A DNA stretch of 64,000 nucleotides from Candidatus Chisholmbacteria bacterium RIFCSPHIGHO2_01_FULL_52_32 (GCA_001816585.1 MHCJ01000006.1:64040-128039); one strand, 5' to 3'. Shown: positions 4,981 to 64,000, counted from the stretch's first letter. Notes: generated by a model from the letters alone, not told the origin. Numbers and translations: made by a program.

Positions 4981-5009
4981 ACGCTCCCAAAAGAATTCGT
5001 TTACCGCTC

Positions 5010-6268: not shown

Positions 6269-6355
6269 GTGCTGCTCGATAACCTATCGAGAAAACGATA
6301 GGCAGGAAAATCACAAACCAAAAATAGTCAAGGTAAAAAGGAACGATAAATTCAC

Positions 6356-6811: not shown

Positions 6812-6837
6812 ACGACAATCGCACCATTGGATAACAG

Positions 6838-7110: not shown

Positions 7111-7192
7111 CCCTTAAATCAAGAGGCAGGCAAACACGCTGGAAAGCAAACCTTCCTTGCACCCGACGCAGCGACTTGATACCATCAAAGGT

Positions 7193-7609: not shown

Positions 7610-7652
7610 ACCCTTAGAGTCCTGTCAGGCGGAAGCCCCCGAAGCACAACCC

Positions 7653-8420: not shown

Positions 8421-8506
8421 AACAATTTTCTCTGCGTCCTGTCTTCCGATAGAACGAATGGAATCGAGGTAACGAATAACCGATAAGCTCTGCTCACTAT
8501 CGCAAG

Positions 8507-38841: not shown

Positions 38842-39117
38842 TTTTACTCACCTCCCCTTTAACTAAAAACCTCTCTGTAAAGAGAGGTGAATAGAACCTT
38901 TTCCGACAGAGATCGGACTAATCCTTCCCTTTACAGGGTTGGGTTTAGCACCGTAGCTCTTATGAGATCGGTTGCCGGATGGATCATCGAGCCAACTCTC
39001 TCCCCATCGCTCTTGATTGGCTATTGAATCTTGTACCTAAAAAAATGATACAAGTCAATATGGTTTTTTGAATATAATTCTTGCTCCCCGGGCAGGATCT
39101 CCCTGATCCAAAAAACA

Positions 39118-42649: not shown

Positions 42650-44102
42650 CCAGCCGGTCAGCCAGACCGGTATAACCAGTGGGAGTTAGAGCCAACAATA
42701 CCTTCTTGTCTTGAGTGGCAAGCGGCAGGGTTTTGATAAATGCGGCGATCTCCTGGCGGCTGTGGACAAAGCCGCGGAAAAACAATTTCGTGCGCTCGAA
42801 GGCATCGCCGCGGCCTTTGGCCCGCAAATAATTTTGGATGGCCTCGGAGAGAATTTCGTAGTGGTCGTCGAGCGCTTGTGCCATAAATTCCGGATGGGGA
42901 CGAATTCGGTGCAAACTTTCCAAAACGCTTTGGTAGGAAAGCAGGCTGTAGGCAAAGGCGGTACCGAAAGACCGGCGTATCGTACTGTCGGAAAGGTCCC
43001 GCTGCAGACGGGAGTAGGAGAGTTTCCGGATATACATTTCCAAAAGTCCATTGGCAATCTCAAACCCGCCCTCCGCCCCTTCCAAGTAAATCGGATTAAT
43101 TTTATGCGGGAGAGCAGTTGAGCCCACTTCCGCAGGGATGCGCTTTTGGCTGAGGAATCCCAACAGGGCATAGAGCCACAAATCCTTACACAGCCCTAAA
43201 AGCAGCAGGTTGATTTGTAGCATGGTTTGGAAGATGTCGGTAAGCGAGTCATATGAGGCGATTTGGGTAGAAATCGGCTCTGGGTTTACTTCCAGCTGTT
43301 CCAGGAAGGTTTCGGAGAACCGCAACCAATCTACCTTGGGGAAGACCACGGCGTGGGCATTAAAATTACCGACATTCCCCGAACATTTGCCCGCTGCCCG
43401 AAACTGCGAGAGTTGCCTGATGCGCTTCTCCAGCCGGTAGATATAGACACCCAGCTCTTTTCCGTAAGTCGTGCCGTTGGCCGGCTGTCCGTGGGTATAG
43501 GCAAGCATGGGCAACTGTTTGTATTCGCGCGCCTGCTTTTTTAATTCCGCCAGATTTTCCCACAGTATGGGTAAGATAATGTCCTTGAGCGCGCGATTGA
43601 TGCAGCGGGCATAGGCACAGGAATTGATGTCATCGGACGTCAGTCCGAAATGAACCATGCTCGCGATATCCCGCAGCGTAGTTTTACTAAGGCGCTCCTG
43701 CAGGTAGAGTTCAACCGCTTTAACGTCATGGTTGGTCTGCTGTTCAATCTCCCGAAGCCTCAGATAGTCTTTGGTGGTAAGTAAAAAGAGGGATTTGAGA
43801 TGCGTCTGTTCTTTGGTGGTAACCGGGCGAATCACTCGATAACGCGACAGCCAAAGCAGATACTGGATTTCGACAAATACCCGCTCTCGGTTAATCGCGC
43901 GTTCCGAGAAATAGTCGGAGAGAGTGCTAATCTTAAAATAATTTCGTCCGTCAATCGGGGTGATATGCAGGTCGATGGGGATTGCACCTAGCGTACTCAC
44001 GTAGCCCAGGGTAACACAAGGAATACCTGCAAGTAAAGAGATTCTTCCGCAGTCTCCGACATCAGATGCTCTTGGGGAATACAAACTTACTGGGCTCAAC
44101 AC
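42633..44102 (-). CDS. purB: adenylosuccinate lyase (fumarate lyase family)
   Basis: Signature GSTALPHKINPI; N-terminal PIDGRNY; overlaps purA start. Confidence 0.85.
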   Translation of the reverse strand: MLSPVSLYSPRASDVGDCGRISLLAGIPCVTLGYVSTLGAIPIDLHITPIDGRNYFKISTLSDYFSERAINRERVFVEIQYLLWLSRYRVIRPVTTKEQTHLKSLFLLTTKDYLRLREIEQQTNHDVKAVELYLQERLSKTTLRDIASMVHFGLTSDDINSCAYARCINRALKDIILPILWENLAELKKQAREYKQLPMLAYTHGQPANGTTYGKELGVYIYRLEKRIRQLSQFRAAGKCSGNVGNFNAHAVVFPKVDWLRFSETFLEQLEVNPEPISTQIASYDSLTDIFQTMLQINLLLLGLCKDLWLYALLGFLSQKRIPAEVGSTALPHKINPIYLEGAEGGFEIANGLLEMYIRKLSYSRLQRDLSDSTIRRSFGTAFAYSLLSYQSVLESLHRIRPHPEFMAQALDDHYEILSEAIQNYLRAKGRGDAFERTKLFFRGFVHSRQEIAAFIKTLPLATQDKKVLLALTPTGYTGLADRLVETYA

Positions 44103-44224: not shown

Positions 44225-44419
44225 ATGGAAGATTTTGCCAACTACCTGTACCGGAGTAGAACCAGAAAAGGGCGTTATGTAAGCCAACAAACCCTCTCCA
44301 AGCTGTCCGGCTACAGCCAGACTTATATATCTTTGATCGAAACACGGAAGGCGAGACCGTCAAAGAGGTGTATGAGGGTAATTTTAAGCGTTTTAGATGC
44401 TAATCTAAGATTTTCTTGA
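44225..44419 (+). CDS. XRE-family helix-turn-helix protein
   Basis: QQTLSKLSGYSQTYISLIE HTH; sits at GC-content transition. Confidence 0.5.
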   Translation: MEDFANYLYRSRTRKGRYVSQQTLSKLSGYSQTYISLIETRKARPSKRCMRVILSVLDANLRFS

Positions 44420-45085
44420 AACAAACCCGATTATTGCATTATCTATTAGTTTAGGCACCGTTGTATTCCAAAGAACGCCATCAACATCCTTTAAAGTTAG
44501 CTTAAGTTGCTGGGTAATCTTGTAAAGCTCCCTCATTAAAATTGAAAACGATTTGAATTCTTTTATCTCTTCATTATGATAATTGAAGTAACCGTAAAAA
44601 AAGTTCATTGTGTATCGCCTATCCATCGGGGGAAATAGCTTTGGTAACAAAAAATGGAGTGTTTTTGATACTCCAACAATTTTTGACTTTGACTTCATAA
44701 TTTTTAAACCCAAGAACAGTTGTCTTGTTATCTCCAAAACCTGTTCTAGCTCAATCTCGGTCAATCGCTGAAGTTCTTTACTGCTTAATTGAGTAACAAT
44801 TCCACTATTCTTCCGGATGGATTCCGCAAAATCATTAAAGTCAGCCAATCTTGCCCCCCGCATGTTCATATTCCACGAAACCAAAGTAACATAACATAGC
44901 TCTATAAAATCTCTGTCACCAGTTAGCTTTACTGTCTGAAAATCTACTTGCTTTTGACGTTCGAAGATCTTCCGGTAGAGATAGATTGACGGGGTTAAGG
45001 ATCGAAAGTTTTTATTGCATATAGACACATATTTGAAAAATTGTTCTCTTGATTCTGTTAATTTGTCTATATTTTCTGTTTTCAT
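44405..45085 (-). CDS. hypothetical protein (226 aa), last gene of nuclease triad
   Basis: ORF abutting Cas4-like nuclease gene (no gap). Confidence 0.5.
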   Translation of the reverse strand: MKTENIDKLTESREQFFKYVSICNKNFRSLTPSIYLYRKIFERQKQVDFQTVKLTGDRDFIELCYVTLVSWNMNMRGARLADFNDFAESIRKNSGIVTQLSSKELQRLTEIELEQVLEITRQLFLGLKIMKSKSKIVGVSKTLHFLLPKLFPPMDRRYTMNFFYGYFNYHNEEIKEFKSFSILMRELYKITQQLKLTLKDVDGVLWNTTVPKLIDNAIIGFVSRKS

Positions 45086-45754
45086 TTAATCTCCAAACGC
45101 TTTAGAGCCCCAGTTGCAAAACTCACAAGCAAAATCGCTATGGCGCTTGGGTTCTGGGCCTTTTAGACACTCTACGGCATCCTTGAATAACTTTTCTGCT
45201 CTAGTTATATCTGTTTCCAGCTTTTTAGGCTCGACTTCAAAGTCCACTCGGCCGTTTTCTGCTACTTGTCTGGGGAAATAATAGACCAGATAAGCAAAAC
45301 TGGCTGTTTTATAACCGTTTTTCATCAACAAATAGCAATAGATATCCAACTGGTGCTGGTAATAACTGCTGGTATCTTCTTTTAACTCATAACCCCGGGT
45401 TTTGTAATCCAAGGGGATATAAACGCCATCATCAACCAAGCAGTCATCCAAAACACCTTTAAGAACAGCGTCAAGCTCTTTGTCCTCATATGTCAGCCCT
45501 TCCCAGTTACTCTGCCATGATTTTAAGAGTTTCTCATCGTCAAACAGCTTACCAATTACTTTTCCTTCAATTTCTGGCGGTAACTTACCCTGTCTGCGGT
45601 ACTTGTCATAGTATTTTTTGATAACCCCATCCATGCCTCCCGGTAGAGATGGAAAAATTCCTCTTGGCCTGTGAATATTTTTGTTAAACTGCAACCAAAA
45701 GCACCTCGGGCACTCCATGTATAGGCTAATTGTTGAGGGTGAGAGTTTTATCAT
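45086..45754 (-). CDS. Cas4/RecB-like PD-(D/E)xK nuclease with cysteine cluster
   Basis: N-terminal YMECPRCFW, core IPLDYKTRG (D...DxK), QxxxY (QHQLDIY), C-terminal CEFCNW. Confidence 0.7.
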   Translation of the reverse strand: MIKLSPSTISLYMECPRCFWLQFNKNIHRPRGIFPSLPGGMDGVIKKYYDKYRRQGKLPPEIEGKVIGKLFDDEKLLKSWQSNWEGLTYEDKELDAVLKGVLDDCLVDDGVYIPLDYKTRGYELKEDTSSYYQHQLDIYCYLLMKNGYKTASFAYLVYYFPRQVAENGRVDFEVEPKKLETDITRAEKLFKDAVECLKGPEPKRHSDFACEFCNWGSKAFGD

Positions 45755-48237
45755 AAACTAACCCGCTTTCTGATAATTTCTTTAACCACTTCCAAATCCT
45801 CATTATTGATAAGATGAAATCTTACCTGATCGTGACGTTTCTTTGGCATGACTGACTCAGGCTTAGACAATTTATCTTTCAGCAACTCTAGTTCTTCAGG
45901 GTTAGTATATTGAAGCTCGGCAAAAATCCACTGCTCAGCAGAATAATAGTAAAGTACCAGATTTTTGGATATCTTTATCGCTCTTGAGGATCCAGCCCAC
46001 CTCTCAAACGACACATCCCGATCCTTAAAATCTTTTTCCACCCATTCTGGGATTGAAGTAACTGCTTGTTTGACAAACTCGCTTTTGACCCGCTTAATCG
46101 TCTGCTCGTCTGGTTCAATCTTTCTTCCCAAGGCTACTTTGCTTTCTTCCGGCTCTTCTTTATCGATATTTTTAACTACTCTGAGTATTTGCGAAAACCA
46201 CTCAACCGCTGCTTCAGCCTCCTTCTGTAATACAAAATTGATTTCCTTGACATGCTTAACTGCATTTCTGAAGTCCTTTAAAGTGATAAACCTTTTCTCT
46301 GTTTCATAGGTTGATCCGAAGTATTGCTCGAAAAACTGCCAATTCTTTAAGATTGTATTTGAATAATCCATCACATCACACTGGCAGAGTTTCTCATAAG
46401 AGGATAATTGATCCTCTTTGATATATGGATTTTTCCTTACATACTCGGCAATCTTGGTTTTAGCTTTAACTTTAATATCTTGTGGAATAACCTTATCCCA
46501 GTAATCGGGGCCGACTTTATCCCTTAAAACGTTATCGATGAGCAAGCGAAGCCGAAGTTCAATATCATCAAGGGCGCTATTGGCATTAACCCCTAAAATC
46601 TGGATGATTTTTGATCCCGTCAATCTCTCAAATTCACCTTTAATTTTTATTACCCTTTCTTTGATAAATGCCTGGTAGTCATCATTTTTGATAACTTCAG
46701 AATAAGTTATCAAGTGTGATTGTAAAGTATTATCAAAGTCAGAGTTTTCCTTATCAAACTTTGAAAAATAGTCGCTTGGGCTTTTATCTAGAATTTCTTT
46801 GTTAAGCTCTGCCGGGATAAAACAGAAGTTAGCGATAAGATTCTCTCCACTCTGACCGTGTTTTGAAAGATGGTTTTTAGGGAAGATGTGGTGTTTTTCC
46901 GGATGGTTAAACTCTGAACAGAAGTTATAATCCATAGAAATCGGTTCGTTTGTTCTGAAATGTTTCGGTGTTCGAAGCGCTAACATGCAGAAAAAAGCAT
47001 TACGCAGGGCTGATTTGGTACTGATGGTAGTATTAGCGATTTTCTCTTCATCGGCCGTAATCTGGAAATTTATCTTTGGCTCTTTATCTGAAAGCAATTT
47101 GTCAAAAATTTCTCTTCTGTCCTCACCCATTTTACTTTCCATAGCCGCTGTGTACCGTTCGCTTAGGGAGGCCTTCCAAAACCACTCGTGGACCTTCTCG
47201 GTAACCTCTTTGTCCAGTGAGTGTCGGGGTGATTTGTAATATAGATAGGCAAGTAAGGAAATAAATGAGGGGTATGGCACAAAGTCAAAGATTTTTACTC
47301 CTAAACTGCCTGTTAAGTGGTCAATTGCCTGCTCAATTGCTGAAGCGATCCCATCCCAATTGTTTTTAATCTCCTCCTTTCTTAGCTGCAGTTGGTAAAT
47401 CTTGTTGCAATAGCCTTTAAGGATTAAAGAGGCAGTATGAGTGACTACTTCCGGCGGGATCTCACCAAAGTTTTTCTTGCTGATTCTTCCGCTTAATTCC
47501 TCATATTTCTCTTTCAAGTCAAAATCTTCTCCCCAAGTGCTAGCCACGATCAGGTCAAATAGCGACAGCTTCTTACCTCCCTGATTGATCCTTTCAAATA
47601 TCTCACAAGCCTCGTTTAAAGTGGCGTTAGATACGGTAACCACGCTTAGGGGGTAGGTAGTAAACCGTCGATAACAATCGTTGAAGACTTTTCGTCTTTC
47701 CGGTGGCAACTTGTCATAAAGAGATAAGTGATCTTCTCCGATTATTTTATACAAAGGCAAGTATCGGTCGCTTTCTTTTTTGACCTCAAAAACAGAGATA
47801 TTTCCGTTTTCATCAGGAGTTTTTTTGTAGTAATCCAGATCTAGACAGATAACCGAACAGTCAATTGCTTTAACCTTGTTGTTGTGTTTAATCTCAACCT
47901 TCAATCCCTTCCAGGCAGCATATAACGAACAAATCCTTTGCTGGCCGTCAAGGATAAACTTCAACTTCTCATCCGACCTTGGCTTTTTAGGCATAATGCC
48001 AAGCTCCGGCAAGTCCCGATAGAAAAGATTGTGCTTACCAGTTGTTTCCCAGAGGAAAAAACTTCCAATAGGATACTCTTTAAAGATACTGTCAAGCAAA
48101 GCCACAATCTTACTTCGTTCCCAGACAAAATCTCTTTGAAATCTGGGCACCCGTAAAGAGCCTTCGGTTAAAGCGTCAAGCAAAGTGATGATCTGTTTGC
48201 TTCCTTCTGATTCTATTCTTGGTGCTGATATTGACAT
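45751..48237 (-). CDS. GmrSD-family type IV restriction-like nuclease (DUF262 ParB-like + DUF1524 His-Me finger) with C-terminal HEPN-like extension
   Basis: DUF262 motifs VPRFQRDFVW, ILDGQQRICSLY; DUF1524-like NHPEKHHIFPKNHL...ENLIANFCFIPAELN; C-terminal FRNAVKH (Rx4H). Confidence 0.8.
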   Translation of the reverse strand: MSISAPRIESEGSKQIITLLDALTEGSLRVPRFQRDFVWERSKIVALLDSIFKEYPIGSFFLWETTGKHNLFYRDLPELGIMPKKPRSDEKLKFILDGQQRICSLYAAWKGLKVEIKHNNKVKAIDCSVICLDLDYYKKTPDENGNISVFEVKKESDRYLPLYKIIGEDHLSLYDKLPPERRKVFNDCYRRFTTYPLSVVTVSNATLNEACEIFERINQGGKKLSLFDLIVASTWGEDFDLKEKYEELSGRISKKNFGEIPPEVVTHTASLILKGYCNKIYQLQLRKEEIKNNWDGIASAIEQAIDHLTGSLGVKIFDFVPYPSFISLLAYLYYKSPRHSLDKEVTEKVHEWFWKASLSERYTAAMESKMGEDRREIFDKLLSDKEPKINFQITADEEKIANTTISTKSALRNAFFCMLALRTPKHFRTNEPISMDYNFCSEFNHPEKHHIFPKNHLSKHGQSGENLIANFCFIPAELNKEILDKSPSDYFSKFDKENSDFDNTLQSHLITYSEVIKNDDYQAFIKERVIKIKGEFERLTGSKIIQILGVNANSALDDIELRLRLLIDNVLRDKVGPDYWDKVIPQDIKVKAKTKIAEYVRKNPYIKEDQLSSYEKLCQCDVMDYSNTILKNWQFFEQYFGSTYETEKRFITLKDFRNAVKHVKEINFVLQKEAEAAVEWFSQILRVVKNIDKEEPEESKVALGRKIEPDEQTIKRVKSEFVKQAVTSIPEWVEKDFKDRDVSFERWAGSSRAIKISKNLVLYYYSAEQWIFAELQYTNPEELELLKDKLSKPESVMPKKRHDQVRFHLINNEDLEVVKEIIRKRVSL

Positions 48238-51343: not shown

Positions 51344-53776
51344 TTAGTAAACTTTTTCAGTTATTTTTATAAATTCGGCAATGTGATTATCTAGTTCAGA
51401 GATTGCCGATGGAATTTCTTTGTCTGCATGTAACAAATTTGAGTAACTGCAATACTTATAAATATTTCTTATTCTTTCCAAATCGGTATCGTTCAGCTTG
51501 ATAAGTTTTCCTTTACCAGATATTAAATTGTCGGTAACCTGAGTAAAGTTATCCTCTTTGTTCCATAATAGTAGTTCGTTTTTGATAAATCTTTCTATGG
51601 CTAACCGCAAAAGCTGACCATATTTCAAAGCTATTGCCTCTAGGCATAATGTGCCCTTTTTTGCCTGCTCTGTCATCTCCTGATAACACTGTTTTACATC
51701 CGCAAGTAAGTCAAATCCAGGATCAGAGTAGATAAAGCTTCCACCGAATTCTTCTCTATTTCTAGCTATACCAAACGTGATCGGGTTGGGATTCTCACAC
51801 TTTGATAAATACTTATAAAAAAGCGGGTGATGGGTTAATACGACAATCTGCCCAAAGGTTTTAGTTTTTTCATGGATGAGATCCGATAGTATCTTCAGAT
51901 TGGGAGCGTCAAGACTAGTTATTGGATCGTCTAGAATCAAGATAACGTCTTTTTTGTCACCAATATTCTCGTTCAACGCAAAGAAAAACGCCAAGGAAAC
52001 CATCTGTCTTTCGCCTTCTGATAAACCTTGCTTAAAAGCTCTTTCCTTTCCGCTTTTATCGTATATTCTGAAAGAAAAGGGGTACTCCTTCGTCTTCGGT
52101 GAAAGCTTAATATGCTTAAGTGTAAAATTGAGGTTGAAACGACCAATGATTTTTATCATTAAGTCAATGAGAGATTGAGGTATTTTCTCTGATAAATACT
52201 TTTCTAAATTGTCTTCTAACAAATCTACTTCCTGATCTAATTTTTCTTTTTCAGACTTTACCTTCTCGTGCTTTTTAATTTGCTCAACTCTTTCTCCTTC
52301 AACAAATGCGTAGATTCCTTCAAGTTCAGCAATCTTGTTGTTTACTTTTTGATGCTCTAGGTCAGTGTTCCTTTTTACCGAATATTTCTGTTTAAACTGG
52401 TTGATTTTTTGGTTCTTACTATCAATAAATTTGTTAAATTCAGTTATCAACTTGTCGAGTTTAACAAAAAAAGCATTTAATTCATCATAAGCGGAATCGG
52501 TACAATATTTTGGTTTTTCTAAAGTTTTCAGTTGCTGTAAAGCCCGCTGAAGTATTGATATTGCCTGAGAGGCTTTACTGCATATTTCAAATTTCTTATT
52601 GTAAGAAATCTTCTCGTCAATATTGTAAAGATCTTTAATTTCAAATTCCTGATTTACTTTCTCAAAAGAAGAAAAAGCCTCGAGTACATCTTCTGGTAAA
52701 TTAGTTATGAAGGTAAGATATTCCGTAATTTCTTGTTCAAGATTTTGAATATCGCTTAGGTATTTTTGCTTCTCGTTTTCATATGTTTTGTCAAATACCT
52801 GTCGATAATATTTGATGACAGCTGTTGCACCAGATAACGGTTGCATACACAGTGGACAGTTTTTGTTCTTTGTATCTGTAATCCTTTTATAATTTTCATC
52901 TTTTTCTAGGAATGACTTATGTTGCTCATAATGTGCTTTTATTAAAGAATCCGCACCATCTCCAGCAGTTTTTTTAATATCCCTTTCGAAAAGTTCAATA
53001 TAGACCTTCTTTGAAGAAATCTGGGGTCGGTCTGACAATTGATTTATCGTTTGAATCCCTGCTATTTGTGCTGACTTGTTTAGTAGTTTTGTGAGACGAT
53101 CCTTGTCTTTTTTTTGATCTGAAATTTCACTTAAAGTCCTTTTGGCAAGTGCTCCTTTTTGATTTTTATTTAAACTTTTATATTTGTTAAACAAGACTAT
53201 CTCTTCCGGGGAGACTGTTAGGTGCAATATGTCCTTGTTGTTGCTTTCAAACTGACTTAAGGCCATCTTTTTTTCCGAAAGATCCATCTTTTGTTTATTT
53301 GCCTGAGCGTCTAAGCTGATAATGAGATTGCCAGCGTTTTGGGTGTGATATCCCTGGATATTGCTAATCGTCCCGTGGGAGTGGATATTTTTATCTATAA
53401 AGTCAACATCAAAAAATAGGATATGTTTTTGTTCTTTTGGTGTATCATCCCATTTTCCTTGCTCGAAGCGGTATGTCTTCGTTGATATATTCCTTTTTAT
53501 ATAAGTTTTTCCATTTGGAGCTGTGTTTTTACTTAACTCAACGGTCTCAAGCTCAACTTCTGACAATACGGGTTTATCGCCTTCAAATCTTTGAAAACCA
53601 GTTAAGTCTTTCAGTATTTCACAGACTGAAGATTTCCCAGACCTGTTTTCTCCAAAGAAAACTGTAAAAGGAGAAAATGAACACTCTCTTCCAGTTTTAT
53701 CCTTACATAAACAATCCCACTGAAAATCTTGAAACGGTTTGTAATTTTTTATAGTTTTTATCTTCTTAATTTTCAT
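51344..53776 (-). CDS. RloC-like Rad50/SMC-type ABC ATPase with coiled-coil CPxC zinc hook and C-terminal putative anticodon-nuclease-like region
   Basis: Walker [10 protein letters not shown], signature LSEGERQ, Walker [15 protein letters not shown]-loop VVLTHH; ~450-aa coiled-coil insert with CPLC; embedded in hsd operon. Confidence 0.6.
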
Positions 53777-56592: not shown

Positions 56593-56796
56593 CTACTTTT
56601 TCTTTTTTTGAGATTTGCTTTTTATATATGCTTCAATATCTTCTTTTTTATACCTGCGGTCACCAATACCACGCCTGGTGCCGATCCTAACAGCTTTTAA
56701 TATGTTGTCATTGTCCCATCTGCGGAGCGTCTGTTCGTTCACCTTCAAAATTTGGGCTGCTTGCTTGAGAGTTAGTAATTCGTCTATGCCTGTCAT
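56593..56796 (-). CDS. excisionase/MerR-like HTH DNA-binding protein
   Basis: LTLKQAAQILKVNEQTLRRW HTH; first gene of the minus-strand island operon. Confidence 0.6.
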   Translation of the reverse strand: MTGIDELLTLKQAAQILKVNEQTLRRWDNDNILKAVRIGTRRGIGDRRYKKEDIEAYIKSKSQKKKK

Positions 56797-56868
56797 ACAT
56801 TAATTGTCTTTAATTATACATTTATTATTGTAAAAAGGGAAACGAACAAGTAGAATATAAACAGATCA

Positions 56869-56953
56869 GAGCTGCGAAATATGCCTTCGGCGTGGTCTTG
56901 AACCCAAAAAGGGGCGACTCTCGTAGGGTTCAAGGCTTCGCAGCTCTGAATAC
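56869..56953. repeat. 85-nt imperfect palindrome with perfect 12-bp terminal inverted repeats
   Basis: CAGAGCTGCGAA ... TTCGCAGCTCTG with internal GCCTTGAACCC/GGGTTCAAGGC complementarity; in divergent intergenic region. Confidence 0.55.
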
Positions 56954-57001
56954 TGGGGGTCGTCCCTTTCTGTTTGGAGGATGACCCAGAAAAGATAATA
57001 T

Positions 57002-57850
57002 ATGGGTCATAAAAATATTTTTGCTTCCGATGGTTGCCTAGCCCAACTTGTTTTCTTTGTTTTTGTGTTGATCTGTTTATTTTCCTACCCACCTTACGGA
57101 TTGTTACTGGGTATCGGAATCCTCTTTATAAGATTTCAACTTCATAAAAAGAAAAAGCTTGAGAAACAAAAAATAGAACTCGAACAAGTTCAAAAGGAGA
57201 TGGATGAGGAAGAGAAAATTAACAAAAGATTTGATGAGATGGATAAAGTTATCAACTCCATGATTAAAAAGGGAAAGATAGATAAGAATTTTATTAAAAC
57301 GCAGTTCGCTGATCTGATCCCAGCTGATATATATTCATCAGAGAAGGAAAAGGATAATCTTATTGATGAACACATAAAAAGACGGTTAAAAGGATTGGCT
57401 TATGAAGAGCGAGAATTGCGAAAACATGAGGCAGATACTTTTATGGCAAGATCGTATCTTCAAAGAAAGAAAATACAAACTCTAAAAAAGAATTTAAGAC
57501 AAGTTGATGATTTATTTGATTTAACACCTGTCGAGTTCGAGAAATGGGTAAAACGCAATATCTTTGAAAAAAAAGACTGGGAGGTAACGGAAACAAAAGC
57601 CACCGGTGATGGCGGTATAGACCTAATCCTAAATCGACAAGATGAACACTCCATAGCTCAATGTAAAAGGTTCAAAAAAACAGTTGGTGAACCGCTTATA
57701 AGGGATTTCTATGGTGTAATGATAAGTGAAGGCGTCAGTAAAGGTTATTTTGTAACTACCGGCCTATTTTCCTTATCTGCTCTTAAATTTGCAGAAGGCA
57801 AACCAATTGAAATGATTGACAGGCGAGTTTTAGCTCAAAAATACCTTTAA
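57002..57850 (+). CDS. membrane-anchored restriction endonuclease (Mrr-cat domain, PD-(D/E)xK) with coiled-coil linker
   Basis: N-terminal TM helices, Lys/Glu coiled coil, C-terminal GDGGIDL...IAQCKRF...GYFVTTGLFS Mrr-cat motifs. Confidence 0.7.
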   Translation: MGHKNIFASDGCLAQLVFFVFVLICLFSYPPYGLLLGIGILFIRFQLHKKKKLEKQKIELEQVQKEMDEEEKINKRFDEMDKVINSMIKKGKIDKNFIKTQFADLIPADIYSSEKEKDNLIDEHIKRRLKGLAYEERELRKHEADTFMARSYLQRKKIQTLKKNLRQVDDLFDLTPVEFEKWVKRNIFEKKDWEVTETKATGDGGIDLILNRQDEHSIAQCKRFKKTVGEPLIRDFYGVMISEGVSKGYFVTTGLFSLSALKFAEGKPIEMIDRRVLAQKYL

Positions 57851-58120
57851 TTTCTTTCAATACCCACCTTATGATTTGGTCGATATAACGGGCTAATTCC
57901 AATTTTTCCTATTGACAAAAGATTTACTCAACTGTTATCATTTATACAGCTTCTCTCAAGAAGCATAGGTTTAGTAAAGAGTACCTCTTCGTAGGAGCAA
58001 AAGGTCGAGTAAGGCCGGAGACTCCTTTTTTATTGCTTCCAAAAGTCCTTAGTTTAAGTTGTTGGTGATGGAGACATGATCTCCTGAGTGTCAGTTTTAA
58101 TAAATTGCTCAGGAGGTTTT

Positions 58121-58756
58121 ATGTCAAAACAATATAAAAACAAAAAATATTTAAAGCAAAAATATGAAGAGTTAGGTTCAACAAGAAAAGTCGGTAAATT
58201 CTTTGGAGTTTCCAATGGCACGATATGTTATTGGATGTCAAAGTACCGGATACCAAGAATCCCCAGATTAGATTTACAGGATAACAACTCAGGAAAAGGC
58301 AGACGAGGAGAGATTTATATTGTCGATCACCCTTATTTTCGAGGAAAAATAATTGATCTTGGACTAATTGACGATAAGTCAAAACGTGATCTTATCTGGG
58401 ACTCAAACTCCATTGACGTTAAAACTAGCCATTACAGGAGGCCAATTTTTAGAACAAAAGTAAAAAGGCATCGCTGTATTTTTTATATTTGCCTTTATTA
58501 CGATTATAAAGTCAGTGAATTCGTTCCGGTTGAGGTTTGGATTACTCCTGCACGTATTGCTTCCCATGAGAACATCGCTCCTGGTTTTAAGAAAAAGTCA
58601 AAATTTGACAAATATCGTCTGTCAAATCTCAGGGGAAAAGCTTTTAGCACTGATGAAGAAAAGAAATATAACCAGGAGTTCGAAAAACGTTACCAAAAAC
58701 TAATTGATAAAAAGAAAGCTCAAAGAACTAGAAAAAGCAAGGAGGTATCTCAATGA
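58121..58756 (+). CDS. HTH-domain protein of unknown function, first gene of Topo-VI-like operon
   Basis: AGGAGG RBS; N-terminal HTH (LGSTRKVGKFFGVSNGTICYWM); 4-nt overlap with downstream GHKL gene. Confidence 0.45.
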   Translation: MSKQYKNKKYLKQKYEELGSTRKVGKFFGVSNGTICYWMSKYRIPRIPRLDLQDNNSGKGRRGEIYIVDHPYFRGKIIDLGLIDDKSKRDLIWDSNSIDVKTSHYRRPIFRTKVKRHRCIFYICLYYDYKVSEFVPVEVWITPARIASHENIAPGFKKKSKFDKYRLSNLRGKAFSTDEEKKYNQEFEKRYQKLIDKKKAQRTRKSKEVSQ

Positions 58757-60060
58757 AAAAACCACAATTCGTCCGTAAGCTTTTTACCACCAGTCGACTT
58801 CTGGAGTTTTTTACCGAAAAAGAACTATCGATGCAAATAGGTCACAGTAAAGAATGGTGGCCAATTGCTCTTTTAAAAGAACTTATTGATAACTCACTTG
58901 ACGCTGCAGAAAATATAAACAAACCCCCGGAAATCCAGATAGTAATTGCTGAAAACTATTTTTCTGTCGAAGACAACGGTCCTGGGATCCCTGATAAAGT
59001 GATTAATCGTTCATTGAACTACACCGTAAGAGTGTCGGATAAAAGCTATTATGTGAGTCCCACCCGAGGACAACTGGGAAATGCGCTTAAATGTGTATAT
59101 GCCGCCCCTTTTGTCGCTAATGGTGAAATAGGCAAGATTGAAATAGTGAACGGTAAAAAAACGTATATGATCGAGGTTGTTTTGGATCGAATAGACCAGA
59201 AACCAAAAATAAAGTTAAACAAACTCGATGAAGGCAATTGTAAAAAAGTGACAGTTTTTTACACAGATTCAGCAGGCTTACTTTTAACACCGAAAGTTTC
59301 AAATATTTACAAAACCCCAATGGACGCAGAAACCCTCGTAAAAAGATATGCCATATTTAATCCACATGCGACATTCAATTTAAACGGTAAAACGTATGAA
59401 CCTTCCAGCACAGTTTGGAAAAAGTGGTTACCAACAGAGCCAACTTCACCACATTGGTATACACCAGAGCAACTCAAAACGCTGATTGCTGCATATTTGA
59501 GCATGGATCGAGACAGCGAAAAAACCGTAAGAGAATTCATTGCAGAGTTTAGGGGTCTTAGTGGTACGACTAAACAAAAAGAGGCCACAGATGATGCAGG
59601 ACTCTCAGGTAAGAGGTTGTGTGACTTGATCGTCAACAACGATATACCTTTAGCACCAATTGAGAAACTTCTGATGTCGCTTAAAAAACATAGCAGACAA
59701 GTAAAAGCCACTTCTTTAGGTTCAATCGGTGAAGAACATCTTAAAACTAGAATGATGAATGACTATCACATAGCCCCTAATAGCTTTAAGTATAAAAAGA
59801 TAGCCAAGATCGATGAGGTAACTAATTTACCACATGTCATAGAAATTGGTTTTGCTATCTATGACAAAGACCATGAGCAAAATTCCCGACAAGTAATATC
59901 TGGTCTAAATTGGTCACCAACATTTGATTTTTTGAGTGAGGCAAAAACAATGTTGTTTGAGAACCACATAGAACCACAAGATCCAGTTTGTGTGGTTTGT
60001 CATATCGCCCGGCCAAAATTTGAATATACCGACAAAGGAAAGGAGCAAGTATGTCTTTAA
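58753..60060 (+). CDS. Top6B-like GHKL (Bergerat-fold) ATPase
   Basis: N-box LKELIDNSLDAAE, G1 box VEDNGPGI, G2 box SPTRGQLGNAL. Confidence 0.7.
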   Translation: MKKPQFVRKLFTTSRLLEFFTEKELSMQIGHSKEWWPIALLKELIDNSLDAAENINKPPEIQIVIAENYFSVEDNGPGIPDKVINRSLNYTVRVSDKSYYVSPTRGQLGNALKCVYAAPFVANGEIGKIEIVNGKKTYMIEVVLDRIDQKPKIKLNKLDEGNCKKVTVFYTDSAGLLLTPKVSNIYKTPMDAETLVKRYAIFNPHATFNLNGKTYEPSSTVWKKWLPTEPTSPHWYTPEQLKTLIAAYLSMDRDSEKTVREFIAEFRGLSGTTKQKEATDDAGLSGKRLCDLIVNNDIPLAPIEKLLMSLKKHSRQVKATSLGSIGEEHLKTRMMNDYHIAPNSFKYKKIAKIDEVTNLPHVIEIGFAIYDKDHEQNSRQVISGLNWSPTFDFLSEAKTMLFENHIEPQDPVCVVCHIARPKFEYTDKGKEQVCL

Positions 60061-61277
60061 CCAATGATTTACAATCGGCTTTTAAATCGACTTCTAGAGA
60101 TTGGAAACAGAAGAAAAAGGGGCTTAGACGGCAAGAAAGCATGAGTTCATGGGGTTTATCAAGTTTACGCTCATACCGTCCACCACGGCAAACAGTAAGA
60201 GACGCTGCTTTTAAAGTTATGAAAGATGCAATAAACAAAGCAAGCGAAAATGGACGTTACTTTGCTAATGCTCGCCAGATCATGTATGCTGCGAGGCCTT
60301 TAGTACTTGAGATAACGAGGGGCGAAATATGGAAAGATTCAGCATACTTTACTCAAACTTTACTTAAAGATTATATCGAACAATATGGCGGTGGAGAAAA
60401 GATTGTTTGGGATGCTCGGGGACATTTAATCGAACCACACACAAAAAAGGTCATACCACTAGGAGGTATTGATGTATTAAAGTACATCAACGACTGGAAC
60501 AGTAAATTTGATATATACGAAGATAGTATTGTACCGAAAGGTATTAAAACTGTTGGACCTAAACTCAGATACGGTGGCGTGCTCTTTATCGAAAAAGAGG
60601 GATTTTCAGAAATTCTTGATGACGCCAGAATTGCGGAAAGATTTGATATCGCCATCATGTCAACCAAAGGGCTCCCTGTTGGTGCTGCATGTAGATTAGT
60701 TTCAGAGCTGGCCGCAGGATCTAAAATTCTTGTCCTTCACGATTTTGATTTGGCTGGATTCAAGATTCTCCAAACTCTAAAGTGTGGTACAAGACTAGCA
60801 CCTAGCACGGAAATTACAGATATTGGCCTACGAATAGACGATGTTTTAAAACTCCAATCTGAGGTTGTTGATTATAAACAATGTATTGATCCAAAAATTT
60901 ATTTACGAAATTGCGGTGCAACCAAAGAAGAATGCGATTTCCTGGTTGAAAAACAAGTTTTTCAGAAAAAATGGATCGGAAAACGAGTAGAGCTGAACGC
61001 CATGACTTCAAAACAACTAATTGACTGGCTTGAACAAAAATTACTCGACCATGGTATCAGTAAGGTAATCCCCGACAAAGCAACACTATCCAAAGCCTAT
61101 CAAAGAGCTAGTTATTGCCTTACGCTTCAAGAGGAAATTGAACTAATAAAAGAAGAATTTGATATCGAAGCTGTCAAAATTCCAAAAGATCTATCCAAAC
61201 AAGTGAAAAAAAGAATAATAAATAGTCAACTCTCTTGGGATAAAGCTGTCTGGAATATAGTTTTTGGAGAAAAATGA
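60051..61277 (+). CDS. Spo11/Top6A-like protein (5Y-CAP catalytic Tyr + Toprim)
   Basis: Catalytic Tyr motif ARQIMYAAR, Toprim Glu VLFIEKEGF, DxD motif VLHDFDLAGF; 10-nt overlap with GHKL gene. Confidence 0.7.
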   Translation: MSLTNDLQSAFKSTSRDWKQKKKGLRRQESMSSWGLSSLRSYRPPRQTVRDAAFKVMKDAINKASENGRYFANARQIMYAARPLVLEITRGEIWKDSAYFTQTLLKDYIEQYGGGEKIVWDARGHLIEPHTKKVIPLGGIDVLKYINDWNSKFDIYEDSIVPKGIKTVGPKLRYGGVLFIEKEGFSEILDDARIAERFDIAIMSTKGLPVGAACRLVSELAAGSKILVLHDFDLAGFKILQTLKCGTRLAPSTEITDIGLRIDDVLKLQSEVVDYKQCIDPKIYLRNCGATKEECDFLVEKQVFQKKWIGKRVELNAMTSKQLIDWLEQKLLDHGISKVIPDKATLSKAYQRASYCLTLQEEIELIKEEFDIEAVKIPKDLSKQVKKRIINSQLSWDKAVWNIVFGEK

Positions 61278-62289
61278 AAGGTTAAGTAGAAGATTTAAGT
61301 TCGACAATAGTCGAGGGGTCGCAAGAGACCAAGGTTAAGGAGTCAAAACTGGCAAAATCGATGATATAAGCCAGTAAGACTTCCATATCGAAGTTAAACG
61401 GTATCGGAGCCCTGCAGTAAAGGCGGTAGCCAAACGCAAACACTGAAAATGAAACAGGGGTCTTATCCAGATGCTCGCTTATAAAGCGTAACCGTCGTAG
61501 AAGTGCGAGTGAGAAGGATTACAGCTCACCTTGCCTCTGAGGCGACAACTTAAAGCAGAAGCGGGATGAATCTACTAGCTAATCTAGTTACAACAAGTAG
61601 CAGGCTGCACACTGATCAATTCAGAATGGCATAAGTAGGAAGTTGCCTTCAAGTCTCGTAAACTAGGATTAAGCTTCATGGAGTGGTAAAGCTACACCTG
61701 GACACGTTAGAACATGAGGAGTTGTTCAAGAACCGTTTATTTCTCTTGCGACTGCAGTTTATAGCTGTAGGGATTAATACTGCTTATAAGACAAACATTA
61801 TCGTAATATTTTTTCAAACACATACTCTTAAAAATTTAAAAAACTAACTTTTCGTACTTATCATAATTGAGCCTAACTGTCGTTTTATTAGATATATTTA
61901 GCCTCATTTAGCCTGAAATCATAAGAGCGGTTATAAATTGTGGTTTCCCGCCTTATGATAGCCACTACCGCCCTTTTGATAATTCATAAAGTCGGTTGTC
62001 AGCAAATATACAACCTTCCTCCTATTTCAGTCGTCTGAACTCCTGTTTTCTTCAATCCAATATTGACAGCCGCCATCTTGCTCTTGACTTTCACTCGGGG
62101 TTCTGTTCCCCTAGGGGGCATGTCTCATTTAGCCATTGCATACGGGATAATTTTTTACTATACTGTTATTAAGTTTTTAATAAGACTCAACTCGGGTCTT
62201 ATAGGTAGAGTAAAAGTTTTAGGTATAGTTTCAGAGGCACATTTCGTGCCAAAGACTATACCTTTTTTTGTTATTTAGGAGGTAAAAGT

Positions 62290-62484
62290 ATGCAGTATAT
62301 AAAAGATATAAGAACAGAGGACTATTTGGATCTTCTGGCAACTAGACTGGCCGAGATAAAACTGTCGGAGTTAGGTTACCGATTTATCCCCGGAATTTAT
62401 CCGGTATTTAGACACCTCAAGCGCTTTATTGAAGCCAGAGCCAGAATCATTACACCCCAGAAAGGAGGTCGAACTGTATGTTAA
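62290..62484 (+). CDS. hypothetical small protein (64 aa) upstream of recombinase
   Basis: TAGGAGGT RBS 6 nt before ATG. Confidence 0.4.
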   Translation: MQYIKDIRTEDYLDLLATRLAEIKLSELGYRFIPGIYPVFRHLKRFIEARARIITPQKGGRTVC

Positions 62485-62601
62485 AAGCAATTTCTTACTA
62501 TAGAAAATCTTCTGATAAAAATGGGTCGAAAGTCGGATTAAATAAAAATGTCCAGCTCAAAGTACTTAAAAGTTATTTAAAAAAGAAAGGAGGTAGTGTC
62601 G

Positions 62602-64000
62602 TATGTCCAAAGCAGTAATTTATTCCCGAGTATCAACCGAGGAACAAGCCAACGAAGGCAAATCAATTGAGGTCCAAATTGATCTTTGCCGAAAGTGGGC
62701 TAAAGAGAACAAATACTCGGTTGTTGGAGTTTACCCGGAACCAGGGAGAAGCGCCACCACGCTTAAGGGTAGAGTCGGTCTTCAAGAAGCAATTGCTCAA
62801 TGTCAGGATGAAAAAATTGACGCCCTGCTGGTTATGGATACAGATAGGTTAGCTCGTAATCCTGCAGATCATTTCTTTATTAAAAAGGCTTTGGCAAAAG
62901 GTGGCACAAGACTTGTTGCTGTCAACCAACCAATGATTAATGACTCTGCTGAAGGAAACTTAATCGAGGCAGTTTTAGCGGGTATGAATGCTTTTCAATC
63001 TGAAATCACCGGAAGAAAAGTTAAAAAGAGCTTAGAAAAAAAGTGTCAGGAAGGCTGGTGGCCGGGCTGGGCACCACTTGGCTATATCAATATCAATAAA
63101 GGCTCTGATGATAAACCGATAAGAATTGTAGAAATCGATCCGGAGCGTGGGCCTTTGATAACTGAGTTTTTCAGACTCTACTCAACCGGCAACTATAGCA
63201 TAGACGCTTTAGTTGATATTTTGTTTAACATGGGGCTTCGCTCAAGACAGGGAAAAAGGGTTTACCGCAGTATTTTATACAATGTCCTTAAAAACGTCTT
63301 TTATATTGGAATGCTTAAGTTTAACGGCCAGATTTACAAGGGCAACCACCAACCCTTAACCACGCCTGAAATCTTTGAAAACTGCCAAAAAACATCTCAA
63401 CTGCATAATAAAAACGCTTGCCGAAGAAGAAAATACCGCTGGCTTTTAAACGGTTTTGTTTACTGCGGTTCTTGTAACACCCGCCTATACACCAGCTGGA
63501 ACCATAAAAAGAAAAAGGGCTACTATCACGGTAGTGTCAGAAACGGCTGTAACCATTATATTGGTTTGGATGAGCTAGAAGAGAAAGTAGCAAACCAACT
63601 TAAGAAAATCCAGTTTTCCGAAAGTTTCAGTCAGCGGGTTATTGACAAAGCCAAAGAACTGGTTAAGCGGTCACGGGAAGCTCGAGATGAGGAAATCCAG
63701 GCTCTAAGAAACAAAGTTAAGGCCCTCGAAGTAAAGAGAAACACGCTCGAGGATAACTTACTAGACCAAACCATCGATAAAGAGACTTTCAAACGTAAAC
63801 ATAACGAGCTAGAGCTTCAGATCCAAAACCTAGAGAATGATATTGCCACCATTGAAAACCAATCCGGTTTTGACGTCGACGTCATTTCCGATATCTTAAG
63901 CCTTACCCAAAACGTTTATGAAACTTACAAAAGGGCTAATTTCGAGGCTAAAAAGCACTATTTATCGATTTTCTTTGAAAGATTAGAAGTCAAAGACAAA
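62602..64000 (+). CDS. large serine recombinase/integrase, 3' partial (runs off window end)
   Basis: N-terminal resolvase catalytic motif AVIYSRVSTEEQ, recombinase domain, zinc-ribbon CGSCNTRLY...C, coiled-coil tail; AGGAGG RBS; not in ORF table because no stop within window; start coordinate +/-1. Confidence 0.8.

What the first reader, a model, noticed from the sequence alone, without database searches (positions are those of the whole stretch)
58121..61277. Translationally coupled three-gene module: HTH protein + Top6B-like GHKL ATPase + Spo11/Top6A-like protein inside a restriction/defense island
This reconstitutes a complete but split, miniaturised type IIB topoisomerase-like enzyme, and it sits next to Mrr, type I RM and GmrSD genes in the low-GC island. 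It could be a topoisomerase-based defense or MGE-maintenance system not assigned to a named defense family. Two consecutive genes (58753..60060 and 60051..61277, 10-nt overlap) encode (i) a 435-aa Bergerat-fold ATPase whose N-box (ELIDNSLDA), G1 (DNGPGI) and especially G2 (TRGQLG) resemble the Topo VI B subunit / MORC lineage. (ii) The second is a 408-aa protein with the Spo11/Top6A catalytic tyrosine motif (RQIMY), Toprim glutamate (IEKEG) and DxD (HDFDLAG). They are preceded and overlapped (ATGA) by a 212-aa HTH protein. Split or fused type IIB-like proteins (Topo VIII, Mini-A) are known mainly from plasmids and integrated elements.
Basis: partly seen in the sequence, partly recalled or inferred. 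Interest (0 to 1): 0.85.

Follow-up and report, generated by a model that had tools for sequence, protein, structure and literature searches.

The report
Two-subunit Topo VIII on integrated element
The two overlapping genes are the already published split form of DNA topoisomerase VIII, a small type IIB topoisomerase carried by mobile elements. The gene in front of them is an unrelated backbone gene of the element, so this is a correct observation of a known thing and not a new defence system.

Summary

The last two genes are a two-subunit DNA topoisomerase VIII of the GxxGxA group.
- The A protein carries the Topo VIII signatures: RVELNAM box, RQIMY-AARP, E plus DxDxxG.
- B and A align colinearly with the N- and C-halves of the characterised fused P. 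polymyxa Topo VIII.
- In 25 of 80 related loci, B and A form one ORF joined at exactly this split point.

The window is from a Candidatus Chisholmbacteria MAG. Takahashi et al. (PMC7671362) name a Ca. Chisholmbacteria Topo VIII, the only one they count in that phylum, as one of seven split enzymes in an integrated element.

The "HTH" gene encodes an HTH plus a PD-(D/E)xK nuclease-like domain. It belongs to the backbone of a serine-recombinase element family, and its relatives occur without Topo VIII. The triad is therefore not a conserved module.

Across 80 loci the neighbours are integrases, primases, helicases and terminases, not defence genes. PADLOC finds nothing for the three proteins.

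Verdict: already known, low interest.

By-product: a conserved structured noncoding element of about 440 nt lies just downstream of the A gene, with no Rfam match.

The parts
57912..57941 (+). Sigma-70-like promoter candidate (TTGACA-18-TATCAT, TG extended) upstream of the HTH-B-A operon
   Evidence: Best match of the consensus scan, 11 of 12. This is a prediction only.
58121..58756 (+). 211-aa protein with an N-terminal Fis/NtrC-type HTH (HTH_50) and a C-terminal PD-(D/E)xK nuclease-like domain. It is a backbone gene of the serine-recombinase element, not a Topo VIII partner.
58753..60060 (+). Topo VIII B-like subunit (435 aa): Bergerat/GHKL ATPase, H2TH region and transducer. Motifs: N-box 58876-58905, G1 58969-58989, G2 GxxGxA 59062-59085, SPHWYT region 59446-59496, putative switch Lys K430 within 60028-60048.
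   Evidence: NCBIfam Topo VI B E=1.5e-19 over aa 38-433. PDB profile search: best is Top6B at 6.5e-14, against MutL 2.4e-4 and MORC3 7e-3. Aligns to aa 2-273 of P. polymyxa Topo VIII. Motifs are invariant in A2.
60051..61277 (+). Topo VIII A-like subunit (408 aa): N-terminal linker helix, 5Y-CAP with Tyr79 (RQIMYAARP, 60273-60299), Toprim Glu181 (60585-60605), DxDxxG (60738-60758), Topo VIII T2BI box RVELNAM (60984-61004) and a C-terminal helical extension.
   Evidence: Pfam PF21180. BLASTP to aa 404-738 of P. polymyxa Topo VIII, E=4e-37. tblastn finds the published Topo VIII plasmids. AF2 plus Foldseek give Top6A/Spo11 as top hits. Invariant residues are listed.
61318..61760 (+). Conserved structured noncoding element downstream of the A gene, inherited together with B-A in the two closest elements. 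It carries a 120-nt insertion (61525-61645) at a stem tip.
   Evidence: 85-90% nt identity to L003, against about 74% for the coding flanks. RNAalifold gives 90 pairs, 0 broken and 5 compensatory. No Rfam match. Absent from L107 and L106.
62290..62484 (+). Small backbone ORF (64 aa) preceded by a conserved leader (62127-62282)
   Evidence: Conserved in L003, L084-L086 and L107. No family hit.
62603..64000 (+). Large serine recombinase of the element. It runs off the window; it is 495 aa in the source contig.
   Evidence: Pfam Resolvase + Recombinase + Zn_ribbon_recom. PHROG integrase 2.4e-85. The full gene, with host-like genes after it, is seen in L105.
56593..56796 (-). HTH_17/MerR-type small gene, the divergent backbone partner of the HTH_50 gene in sister elements
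   Evidence: Pfam HTH_17 1.8e-12. It has the same position in L084-L088.
57002..57850 (+). Mrr-type restriction endonuclease, a cargo gene absent from the sister element L003
   Evidence: Pfam Mrr_cat 1.5e-24. No homologue in L003.

Best explanation
Genes 58753..60060 and 60051..61277 encode the two subunits of a DNA topoisomerase VIII, the mobile-element-borne subfamily of type IIB topoisomerases. It belongs to the GxxGxA group. [quoted passage not shown]

By homology with Topo VI and with fused Topo VIII, the two proteins should form a B2A2 enzyme.
- ATP binding to the GHKL domains (N-box E43/N47, G1 D74, G2 G106-A111, switch K430) would close the B gate.
- The A dimer would cleave a DNA duplex with Tyr79 and Mg2+ held by Glu181, Asp231 and Asp233.
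- The RVELNAM box sits over the active site.

The genes sit in the non-defence arm of an integrated element of about 20 kb, bounded by a large serine recombinase, in a Candidatus Chisholmbacteria genome. The most likely role is to serve the element's own DNA: relaxation or decatenation of the excised or replicating circle, or controlled double-strand cleavage.

The upstream gene is a separate backbone gene of that element family (HTH plus PD-(D/E)xK nuclease-like domain). It happens to share the operon.

Shown here: identity, architecture, catalytic residues and genomic context. Inferred: subunit assembly, ATP gating and biological role.
For: Sequence signatures of Topo VIII as defined in PMC7671362:
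- RVELNAM box (aa 312-318).
- RxxMY followed by R at +3 and then P (RQIMYAARP).
- E plus DxDxxG.
- G2 box GxxGxA.

Homology to known Topo VIII:
- tblastn of A against 72,556 plasmids returns 7 records, including four that PMC7671362 and PMC4117785 name as Topo VIII plasmids: pPPM1a, pMPPla107, pBASL58 and the H. jeotgali plasmid.
- B aligns to aa 2-273 and A to aa 404-738 of the biochemically characterised 751-aa P. polymyxa enzyme.

Architecture in 80 genome loci from many phyla:
- B sits directly upstream of A in all 77 loci where both are seen.
- 25 loci are fused in one ORF and 52 are split.
- Fused relatives join the halves by 1-7 residues at exactly the window's split point.

Fold and profile evidence:
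- Top6B is the best PDB profile match for B.
- Top6A and Spo11 are the best folds for the A model.

Source and literature:
- The window proteins are OGY17861-3 of a Ca. Chisholmbacteria MAG.
- The paper counts one Topo VIII in Chisholmbacteria. [quoted passage not shown]

Mobile-element context:
- A large serine recombinase lies 1.3 kb downstream, with host-like genes after it. In L003 the recombinase is followed by rpoD and dnaG.
- Neighbours across loci are tyrosine integrases (29 of 80 loci), Prim-Pol, D5-like helicases, DnaB_C and terminase.
Against: - No enzymology exists for any split or CPR Topo VIII.
- The only tested GxxGxA enzyme (A. degensii) showed cleavage but no relaxation, and all reported activities were weak (PMC4117785). 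So 'topoisomerase' rather than 'DNA-breaking enzyme' is not established.
- Assembly of the two subunits is unproven. The paper notes that Topo VIII lacks the CAP segment that binds Top6B in Topo VI.
- I could not open the paper's supplementary tables to match accession numbers.
- The switch-lysine assignment (K430) rests on invariance and position only.
Confidence: 0.9

Rival explanations
1. The pair, or the triad, is a topoisomerase-based anti-phage or anti-plasmid defence system. It would work as a nuclease effector like JetD/MksG or Spo11, breaking invading DNA.
For: - In this window it lies beside Mrr, a type I RM with an AAA_13 ATPase, and GmrSD.
- The only tested GxxGxA Topo VIII only linearised plasmid DNA.
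- JetD and MksG appear among the weaker fold matches.
Against: - No PADLOC hit for any of the three proteins; JetD reaches only E=0.037.
- Among 116 genes flanking Topo VIII in 80 loci, the recurrent families are integrases, Prim-Pol, D5/VapE/DUF3987 helicases and terminase. Defence hits are a few methyltransferases, one SoFic and one PDC-S04.
- The next-closest locus is prophage-like: DnaB_C, B, A, terminase, recombinase.
- The defence genes here are on the opposite arm and strand, and they differ in the sister elements.
Confidence: 0.06
2. The HTH/nuclease protein, B and A form an obligate three-component machine, with the HTH protein targeting or regulating the topoisomerase.
For: - The ATGA overlap and shared promoter put the genes in one operon.
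- The same arrangement is found in the closest relative, L003.
Against: - The HTH family has only 15 members. Topo VIII A-like and B-like proteins number in the thousands.
- 79 of the 80 related Topo VIII loci have no homologue of it.
- HTH homologues at 53-77% identity lie in the same backbone position in elements with no Topo VIII.
- The same overlap style links the HTH gene to unrelated small genes there.
Confidence: 0.07
3. The split genes are a decaying, non-functional remnant of a fused Topo VIII.
For: Gadelle et al. suggested that integrated copies may be decaying, to explain the weak activities. Split forms could arise from a frameshift.
Against: - All catalytic and ATP-binding residues are intact and invariant across 22-sequence alignments.
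- The same 10-nt overlap and ribosome-binding site are kept in L003 and L106 at 56-76% identity.
- 52 of 77 loci are split, and split forms are interleaved with fused ones on the tree.
- The identical proteins recur on 19 contigs.
Confidence: 0.04
4. It is an ordinary bacterial Topo VI (Top6A/Top6B), or a GHKL protein of another lineage (MutL, MORC, HSP90, kinase) paired with an unrelated Toprim protein.
For: The best named profiles are Topo VI A and B. JGI labels many homologues 'DNA topoisomerase VI subunit B'.
Against: - Scores are far below the Topo VI equivalog cut-offs: 70 against 274 bits for B, and 25.8 against 424 for A.
- The Topo VIII-specific RVELNAM and YxxRP signatures are present.
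- MutL, MORC and gyrase profile matches are 9-11 orders of magnitude weaker than Top6B.
Confidence: 0.02

Closest known systems
DNA topoisomerase VIII, two-subunit form (Gadelle et al. 2014, PMC4117785; Takahashi et al. 2019/2020, PMC7671362)
   Same: - Same domain order: GHKL, H2TH, transducer, then linker helix, truncated 5Y-CAP, Toprim and a C-terminal extension.
- RVELNAM T2BI box, RxxMY plus R/P after the tyrosine, and a GxxGxA G2 box.
[quoted passage not shown]
- Located on an integrated mobile element.
- The Ca. Chisholmbacteria example is named in the paper.
   Different: Nothing in the B/A pair itself.

Not described in the main text of the papers I could read:
- The upstream HTH-nuclease backbone gene.
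- The downstream structured noncoding element.
- The serine-recombinase element family.
- Split forms outnumber fused ones (52 to 25) among the closest relatives in GTDB species representatives. The paper found 7 split forms among 82.
Fused Topo VIII of Paenibacillus polymyxa pPPM1a (ATP-dependent relaxation and decatenation)
   Same: Colinear homology of B to aa 2-273 and of A to aa 404-738. All catalytic motifs are shared.
   Different: The P. polymyxa enzyme is a single 751-aa polypeptide with a GxxGxG G2 box, carried on a 366-kb plasmid. Identity is only 27-28%.
Archaeal/plant Topo VI (Top6A2B2) and eukaryotic Spo11-Top6BL
   Same: - Two-subunit type IIB architecture.
- Bergerat ATPase with transducer.
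- 5Y-CAP tyrosine plus Toprim E/DxD.
- Best PDB profile and fold matches.
   Different: - Far below the Topo VI family cut-offs.
- Different T2BI box.
- Per the literature, it lacks the N-terminal CAP segment that binds Top6B.
- MGE-borne rather than chromosomal housekeeping.
Mini-A (viral stand-alone Top6A-like proteins)
   Same: 5Y-CAP plus Toprim, with MGE or virus association.
   Different: Mini-A is about 300 aa, has a WELDAL signature and has no B partner. Here the protein is 408 aa, carries RVELNAM and has an adjacent B subunit. The PHROG 'DNA topoisomerase' family match is weak, E=0.0016.
Wadjet JetD / MksG nucleases
   Same: Top6A-like CAP+Toprim fold, with weaker Foldseek hits.
   Different: No JetABC/MksBEF SMC partners nearby. 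The PADLOC JetD match is only E=0.037. A GHKL B subunit is present instead.

Membership tests
DNA topoisomerase VIII | [quoted passage not shown] | tested here: met
   The halves are colinear with the fused P. polymyxa enzyme. Fused relatives join the halves at the window's split point.
DNA topoisomerase VIII | T2BI box with the RVELNAM signature at the end of Toprim. The paper says this suffices to discriminate Topo VIII from Topo VI and Mini-A. | tested here: met
   RVELNAM at aa 312-318. R312, V313, E314 and N316 are invariant in 22 homologues. The definition is quoted.
DNA topoisomerase VIII | Catalytic Tyr in an Rxx(Y/F/M)Y context, with a conserved Arg three residues after it, often followed by Pro | tested here: met
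   RQIMYAARP at aa 75-83. R75, Y79, R82 and P83 are invariant.
DNA topoisomerase VIII | Toprim metal ligands: E followed by DxDxxG | tested here: met
   E181 (IEKEG) and D231-F-D233-L-A-G236; all are invariant.
DNA topoisomerase VIII | Intact N, G1 and G2 boxes (G2 = GxxGxG or GxxGxA) plus a switch lysine in the transducer | tested here: met
   E43/D46/N47/D50, D74-N-G-x-G78 and G106-Q-L-G-N-A111 are conserved: all invariant in A2 except G76 and G78, which are nearly invariant at 90% or more. The switch Lys is assigned to the invariant K430 by position only; that assignment is an inference.
DNA topoisomerase VIII | [quoted passage not shown] | tested here: inconclusive
   The AF2 model shows only low-confidence helices (aa 3-40) before the CAP helix that bears Y79. 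Foldseek aligns about 340 columns to Top6A but with poor global superposition. No residue-level comparison was made.
DNA topoisomerase VIII | Specific sequence homology to the experimentally characterised Topo VIII enzymes | tested here: met
   tblastn against plasmids hits pPPM1a, pMPPla107, pBASL58 and the H. jeotgali plasmid. BLASTP gives E=4e-37 for A and 4e-15 for B.
DNA topoisomerase VIII | Encoded by a free or integrated mobile element | tested here: met
   Low-GC island from 44.1 kb. Large serine recombinase with host genes after it. Integrases, primases and terminase in related loci.
DNA topoisomerase VIII | Mg2+-dependent DNA relaxation, decatenation or cleavage dependent on the active-site tyrosine | not testable with these tools
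   Needs purified protein. Only three fused enzymes have been assayed.
Topo VI (Top6A/Top6B) | Reaches the curated equivalog thresholds of the Topo VI A and B models | tested here: not met
   B scores 70 bits against a 274 cut-off. A scores 25.8 bits against 424.
Mini-A | Stand-alone A-like protein of about 300 aa with a WELDAL signature and no Bergerat-fold partner | tested here: not met
   The protein is 408 aa, has RVELNAM instead of WELDAL, and has a B gene overlapping it upstream.
Wadjet/MksBEFG (JetD/MksG) | JetD-type protein encoded with JetABC/MksBEF SMC-like partners | tested here: not met
   PADLOC JetD E=0.037 only. No SMC/kleisin genes flank the pair.
Other GHKL lineages (MutL, MORC, HSP90, histidine kinase) | Best profile match to that lineage | tested here: not met
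   Top6B 6.5e-14, MutL 2.4e-4, gyrase B about 2e-4, MORC3 7.4e-3.
Named anti-phage defence systems (PADLOC-DB 2.0) | Any of the three proteins matches a defence-system model | tested here: not met
   No hits apart from the marginal JetD match.

The most novel reading that the evidence does not exclude
In this CPR element the Topo VIII pair travels as a cassette of about 3.1 kb together with a structured RNA of about 440 nt that matches no Rfam family. The only tested GxxGxA Topo VIII cleaves DNA without religating. So the pair might be a programmed DNA-breaking enzyme of the element, not a housekeeping-style topoisomerase. It could process the element's own DNA or act against competitors, and the adjacent RNA could be a cofactor or regulator.
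Probability: 0.06. Interest if true: 0.7.

Novelty: already known. Interest (0 to 1): 0.15.

Why it matters
It matters little as a discovery. The enzyme subfamily was named in 2014, and a split Chisholmbacteria example, very probably this pair, was catalogued in 2019/2020. The analysis does tidy the annotation: GenBank still calls all three proteins 'hypothetical protein'.

It also adds three modest points.
- Relatives of this GxxGxA clade number in the thousands across many phyla. They are more often split than fused among the closest relatives in GTDB species representatives.
- The upstream 'HTH' gene is an HTH plus PD-(D/E)xK nuclease-like backbone gene of a family of serine-recombinase elements that carry restriction cargo.
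- A conserved, apparently structured RNA-like element sits directly downstream of the A gene.

The biological role of Topo VIII remains an open question. This locus does not make that question more testable than the published ones.

Tried and rejected
- **PADLOC on the three proteins.** No defence family matched.
- **Rfam on the whole window and on 61200-62650 at E<=1.** Only a SAM riboswitch elsewhere in the window.
- **More copies of the downstream noncoding element.**
  - An 18-mer scan of metagenome contigs gave 10 contigs with no further similarity, so these are chance matches.
  - Two 17-mer scans of viral contigs gave 4 and 0 hits, again with only the seed matching.
  - blastn and nhmmer against all fetched loci found only L003.
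- **A covariance model of the element.** Not attempted. It exceeds the size the tool will calibrate, and only two copies exist.
- **The paper's supplementary tables.** Not held, so accession-level identity with the published Chisholmbacteria entry could not be checked.
- **Whether split forms make one clade.** They do not; fused and split forms are interleaved on an NJ tree. This agrees with the published view of repeated split events.
- **Programmed frameshifting across the 10-nt overlap to make a fused protein.** No slippery site is evident. Other split loci use 1-4-nt overlaps typical of coupling. Not pursued.
- **Structure of the B subunit.** Its assignment rests on profiles and on homology to the fused enzyme.
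Full report
**1. Observation**

- 58121..58756, 211 aa. An in-frame GTG at 58088 would give 222 aa.
- 58753..60060, 435 aa.
- 60051..61277, 408 aa.

The junctions read AGGAGGTATCTCAATGA and AAGGAGCAAGTATGTCTTTAA. The 4-nt and 10-nt overlaps are therefore real, and each downstream start has a ribosome-binding site. A strong sigma-70-like site at 57912-57941 lies upstream of the first gene.

All quoted motifs are present. Profile searches confirm the families.
- The 435-aa protein matches the NCBIfam Topo VI B model from residue 38 to 433 (E=1.5e-19). It also matches Pfam HATPase_c and, weakly, the Topo VI B transducer.
- The 408-aa protein matches Pfam TOP6A-Spo11_Toprim above the gathering score.

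The surroundings are as described.
- purA and purB end at 44102.
- GC then falls from about 0.50-0.55 to about 0.32-0.45.
- The island holds a PD-(D/E)xK protein, GmrSD, hsdR, an AAA_13 ATPase, hsdS, hsdM, an HTH_17 gene and Mrr.

**2. What the B/A pair is**

The A protein has at least 3954 homologues and the B protein at least 2203. Nearly all are 400-450 aa and are named 'hypothetical', 'ATP-binding protein' or 'topoisomerase VI subunit'.

Takahashi et al. (PMC7671362) give sequence criteria for the Topo VIII subfamily:
- an RVELNAM box at the end of Toprim, which separates Topo VIII from Topo VI and from Mini-A (WELDAL);
- RxxY/F/M-Y around the catalytic tyrosine, with an Arg three residues later, often followed by Pro;
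- E plus DxDxxG;
- a G2 box of GxxGxG or GxxGxA.

The window proteins have RVELNAM (aa 312-318), RQIMY79AARP, IE181KEG, HD231FD233LAG and TRG106QLGNA111. All of these residues are invariant in 22-sequence alignments.

Homology to known Topo VIII is direct.
- A tblastn of the A protein against 72,556 plasmids returns seven records. They include four plasmids that the two Topo VIII papers name: pPPM1a, pMPPla107, pBASL58 and the H. jeotgali plasmid.
- Against the biochemically characterised 751-aa P. polymyxa enzyme, B aligns to residues 2-273 (E=4e-15) and A to residues 404-738 (E=4e-37). The two genes are thus colinear halves of the fused protein.

A scan of one genome per species gave 80 loci from many bacterial phyla and one archaeon.
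- The B homologue lies directly upstream of A in all 77 loci where both are visible.
- In 25 loci the two are one ORF. In 52 they are separate.
- In fused relatives only 1-7 residues link '...DRGKxxxxL' to the start of the A-like part, which is exactly the window's split point.
- Fused and split forms are interleaved on an NJ tree.

Other lineages are excluded.
- A PDB profile search puts B with Top6B (6.5e-14), well ahead of MutL (2.4e-4), gyrase B and MORC3 (7e-3).
- The AF2 model of A (pLDDT 79.9) has Top6A, then Spo11, then JetD/MksG as its best folds.
- Scores against the Topo VI equivalog models are far below their cut-offs.
- The Mini-A-like PHROG match is marginal.

**3. It is already published**

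Exact look-up shows the three proteins are OGY17861-3 (A2900_00550-560) of a Candidatus Chisholmbacteria MAG, contig MHCM01000003.1.

Takahashi et al. count one Topo VIII in Chisholmbacteria. [quoted passage not shown] They state that its neighbourhood is an integrated element. The Woykebacteria pair they also cite appears among my hits (P0072/P0141, L005).

I could not open the supplementary tables to match accessions. The phylum, the architecture and the split position all coincide.

**4. The first gene is not part of a triad**

The 211-aa protein has only 15 homologues. A homologue accompanies Topo VIII in only 1 of the 80 related loci, L003 from a Beckwithbacteria MAG at 62% identity.

Its other homologues (53-77% identity) sit in a fixed backbone with no Topo VIII:
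- restriction or defence cargo on the minus strand;
- a small HTH_17/MerR gene;
- then, divergently, the HTH_50 gene, variable small genes and a large serine recombinase.

The closely related element L107 shares the HTH gene and everything from window 61906 onward. It lacks B, A and the noncoding element. So about 58753-61900 behaves as a 3.1-kb cassette.

**5. Defence or element maintenance?**

PADLOC has no model for any of the three proteins.

Within 6 kb of Topo VIII in the 80 loci, the only recurrent gene families are:
- a tyrosine integrase, in 29 loci;
- serine recombinases;
- Prim-Pol and D5-like primase-helicases.

I also scanned 116 immediately flanking genes.
- In Pfam the top families are Phage_integrase, Prim-Pol, HTH_17, DUF3987, AAA_25, D5_N, VapE and terminase.
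- In PADLOC there are only a few methyltransferases, one SoFic and one PDC-S04.

The next-closest Topo VIII locus, L106, reads DnaB_C helicase, B, A, small ORFs, large terminase, serine recombinase. That is a prophage-like replication and packaging region.

In the window the defence genes lie on the opposite arm and strand, and they differ between sister elements. In both the window's source contig and L003, host genes follow the recombinase directly. This marks the element's edge.

The evidence therefore places Topo VIII among the element's own DNA-handling genes, as the literature proposes. Adjacency to restriction genes here reflects shared residence on a cargo-carrying element.

**6. Mechanism**

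Shown: the architecture, intact ATP-binding and cleavage residues, operon structure and mobile-element context.

Inferred by homology with Topo VI and fused Topo VIII:
- a B2A2 enzyme;
- ATP-driven dimerisation of the GHKL domains, signalled through the transducer and K430;
- duplex cleavage by Tyr79 with Toprim-bound Mg2+;
- strand passage and religation.

Uncertain:
- Published activities are weak.
- The P. polymyxa enzyme (GxxGxG) shows ATP-dependent relaxation and decatenation. The M. marina enzyme relaxes without ATP.
- The only GxxGxA enzyme tested, from A. degensii, only linearised plasmid (PMC4117785).
- This GxxGxA pair could therefore be a topoisomerase for the excised or replicating circle, or a controlled DNA-breaking enzyme.

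**7. Novelty and score**

The B/A pair is already known, by subfamily and very probably as this exact locus.

Minor additions:
- the size of the clade;
- the predominance of split forms among the closest relatives in GTDB representatives (52 to 25, against 7 of 82 in the paper);
- the identity of the upstream backbone gene;
- the noncoding element.

Interest is low (0.15).

**8. By-product**

Between the A stop codon and the backbone lies a noncoding stretch, about 61318-61760.
- It is 85-90% identical to L003, while the flanking genes are about 74% identical.
- RNAalifold on the two copies predicts 90 pairs. None is broken, five carry compensatory double changes and four carry wobble-compatible changes.
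- Many G-U pairs fit only the + strand.
- A 120-nt insertion in the window sits at a stem tip.
- It has no Rfam match, and no further copies were found.

Two related copies are too few to prove a structure, so this remains a lead.

Noticed in passing
window 61318-61760 (+), = L003 4360-4700: A noncoding element downstream of the Topo VIII A gene is more conserved than the flanking genes (85-90% against about 74%). The predicted structure has 90 pairs, 0 broken and 5 compensatory, with a 120-nt insertion at a stem tip. It has no Rfam match. It is inherited with B-A in the two closest elements and is absent from L106 and L107. It may be a new structured RNA or a replication/recombination site.
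   Followed up: partly
window 56593-58756 and 62127-64000; loci L083-L088, L107: A family of integrative elements, seen here in candidate-phyla bacteria and in unassigned metagenome contigs, has a fixed backbone. The order is restriction/defence cargo (- strand), HTH_17 gene, divergent HTH_50 + PD-(D/E)xK gene, variable small genes, conserved leader, a 64-aa ORF and a large serine recombinase. Topo VIII is optional cargo of the right arm.
   Followed up: partly
[not shown]
   Followed up: partly
window 51344-53776 (-): An 810-aa AAA_13/SMC_N-type ATPase is inserted between hsdR and hsdS of the type I RM operon. This is the position typical of RloC/PrrC-like abortive-infection partners of type I systems.
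   Followed up: no
window 44405-48237 (-): The left end of the low-GC island holds a 226-aa protein with no family, a PD-(D/E)xK protein and an 828-aa GmrSD-type enzyme. They lie directly after purB (42633-44102), which marks the probable left boundary of the element.
   Followed up: no
window 38916-39022 (-): A SAM (S-box) riboswitch, 57 bits against a gathering score of 44.4, lies in the host part of a Candidatus Chisholmbacteria genome.
   Followed up: no
L106 (Logan SRR30681617 contig), 276-8568: A prophage-like arrangement carries a split Topo VIII: DnaB_C helicase, B, A, small ORFs, large terminase, serine recombinase. The main text of the papers I could read describes Topo VIII as plasmid-borne and Mini-A as the viral form. 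This suggests Topo VIII also occurs in phage-like elements.
   Followed up: no
L003-L082 (genome-contig scan): Among the 80 closest genome loci, 52 have split B/A genes and 25 are fused. The 2019/2020 survey found 7 split among 82. Some splits may be MAG frameshift errors, but most show 1-10-nt start/stop overlaps typical of coupled genes.
   Followed up: partly
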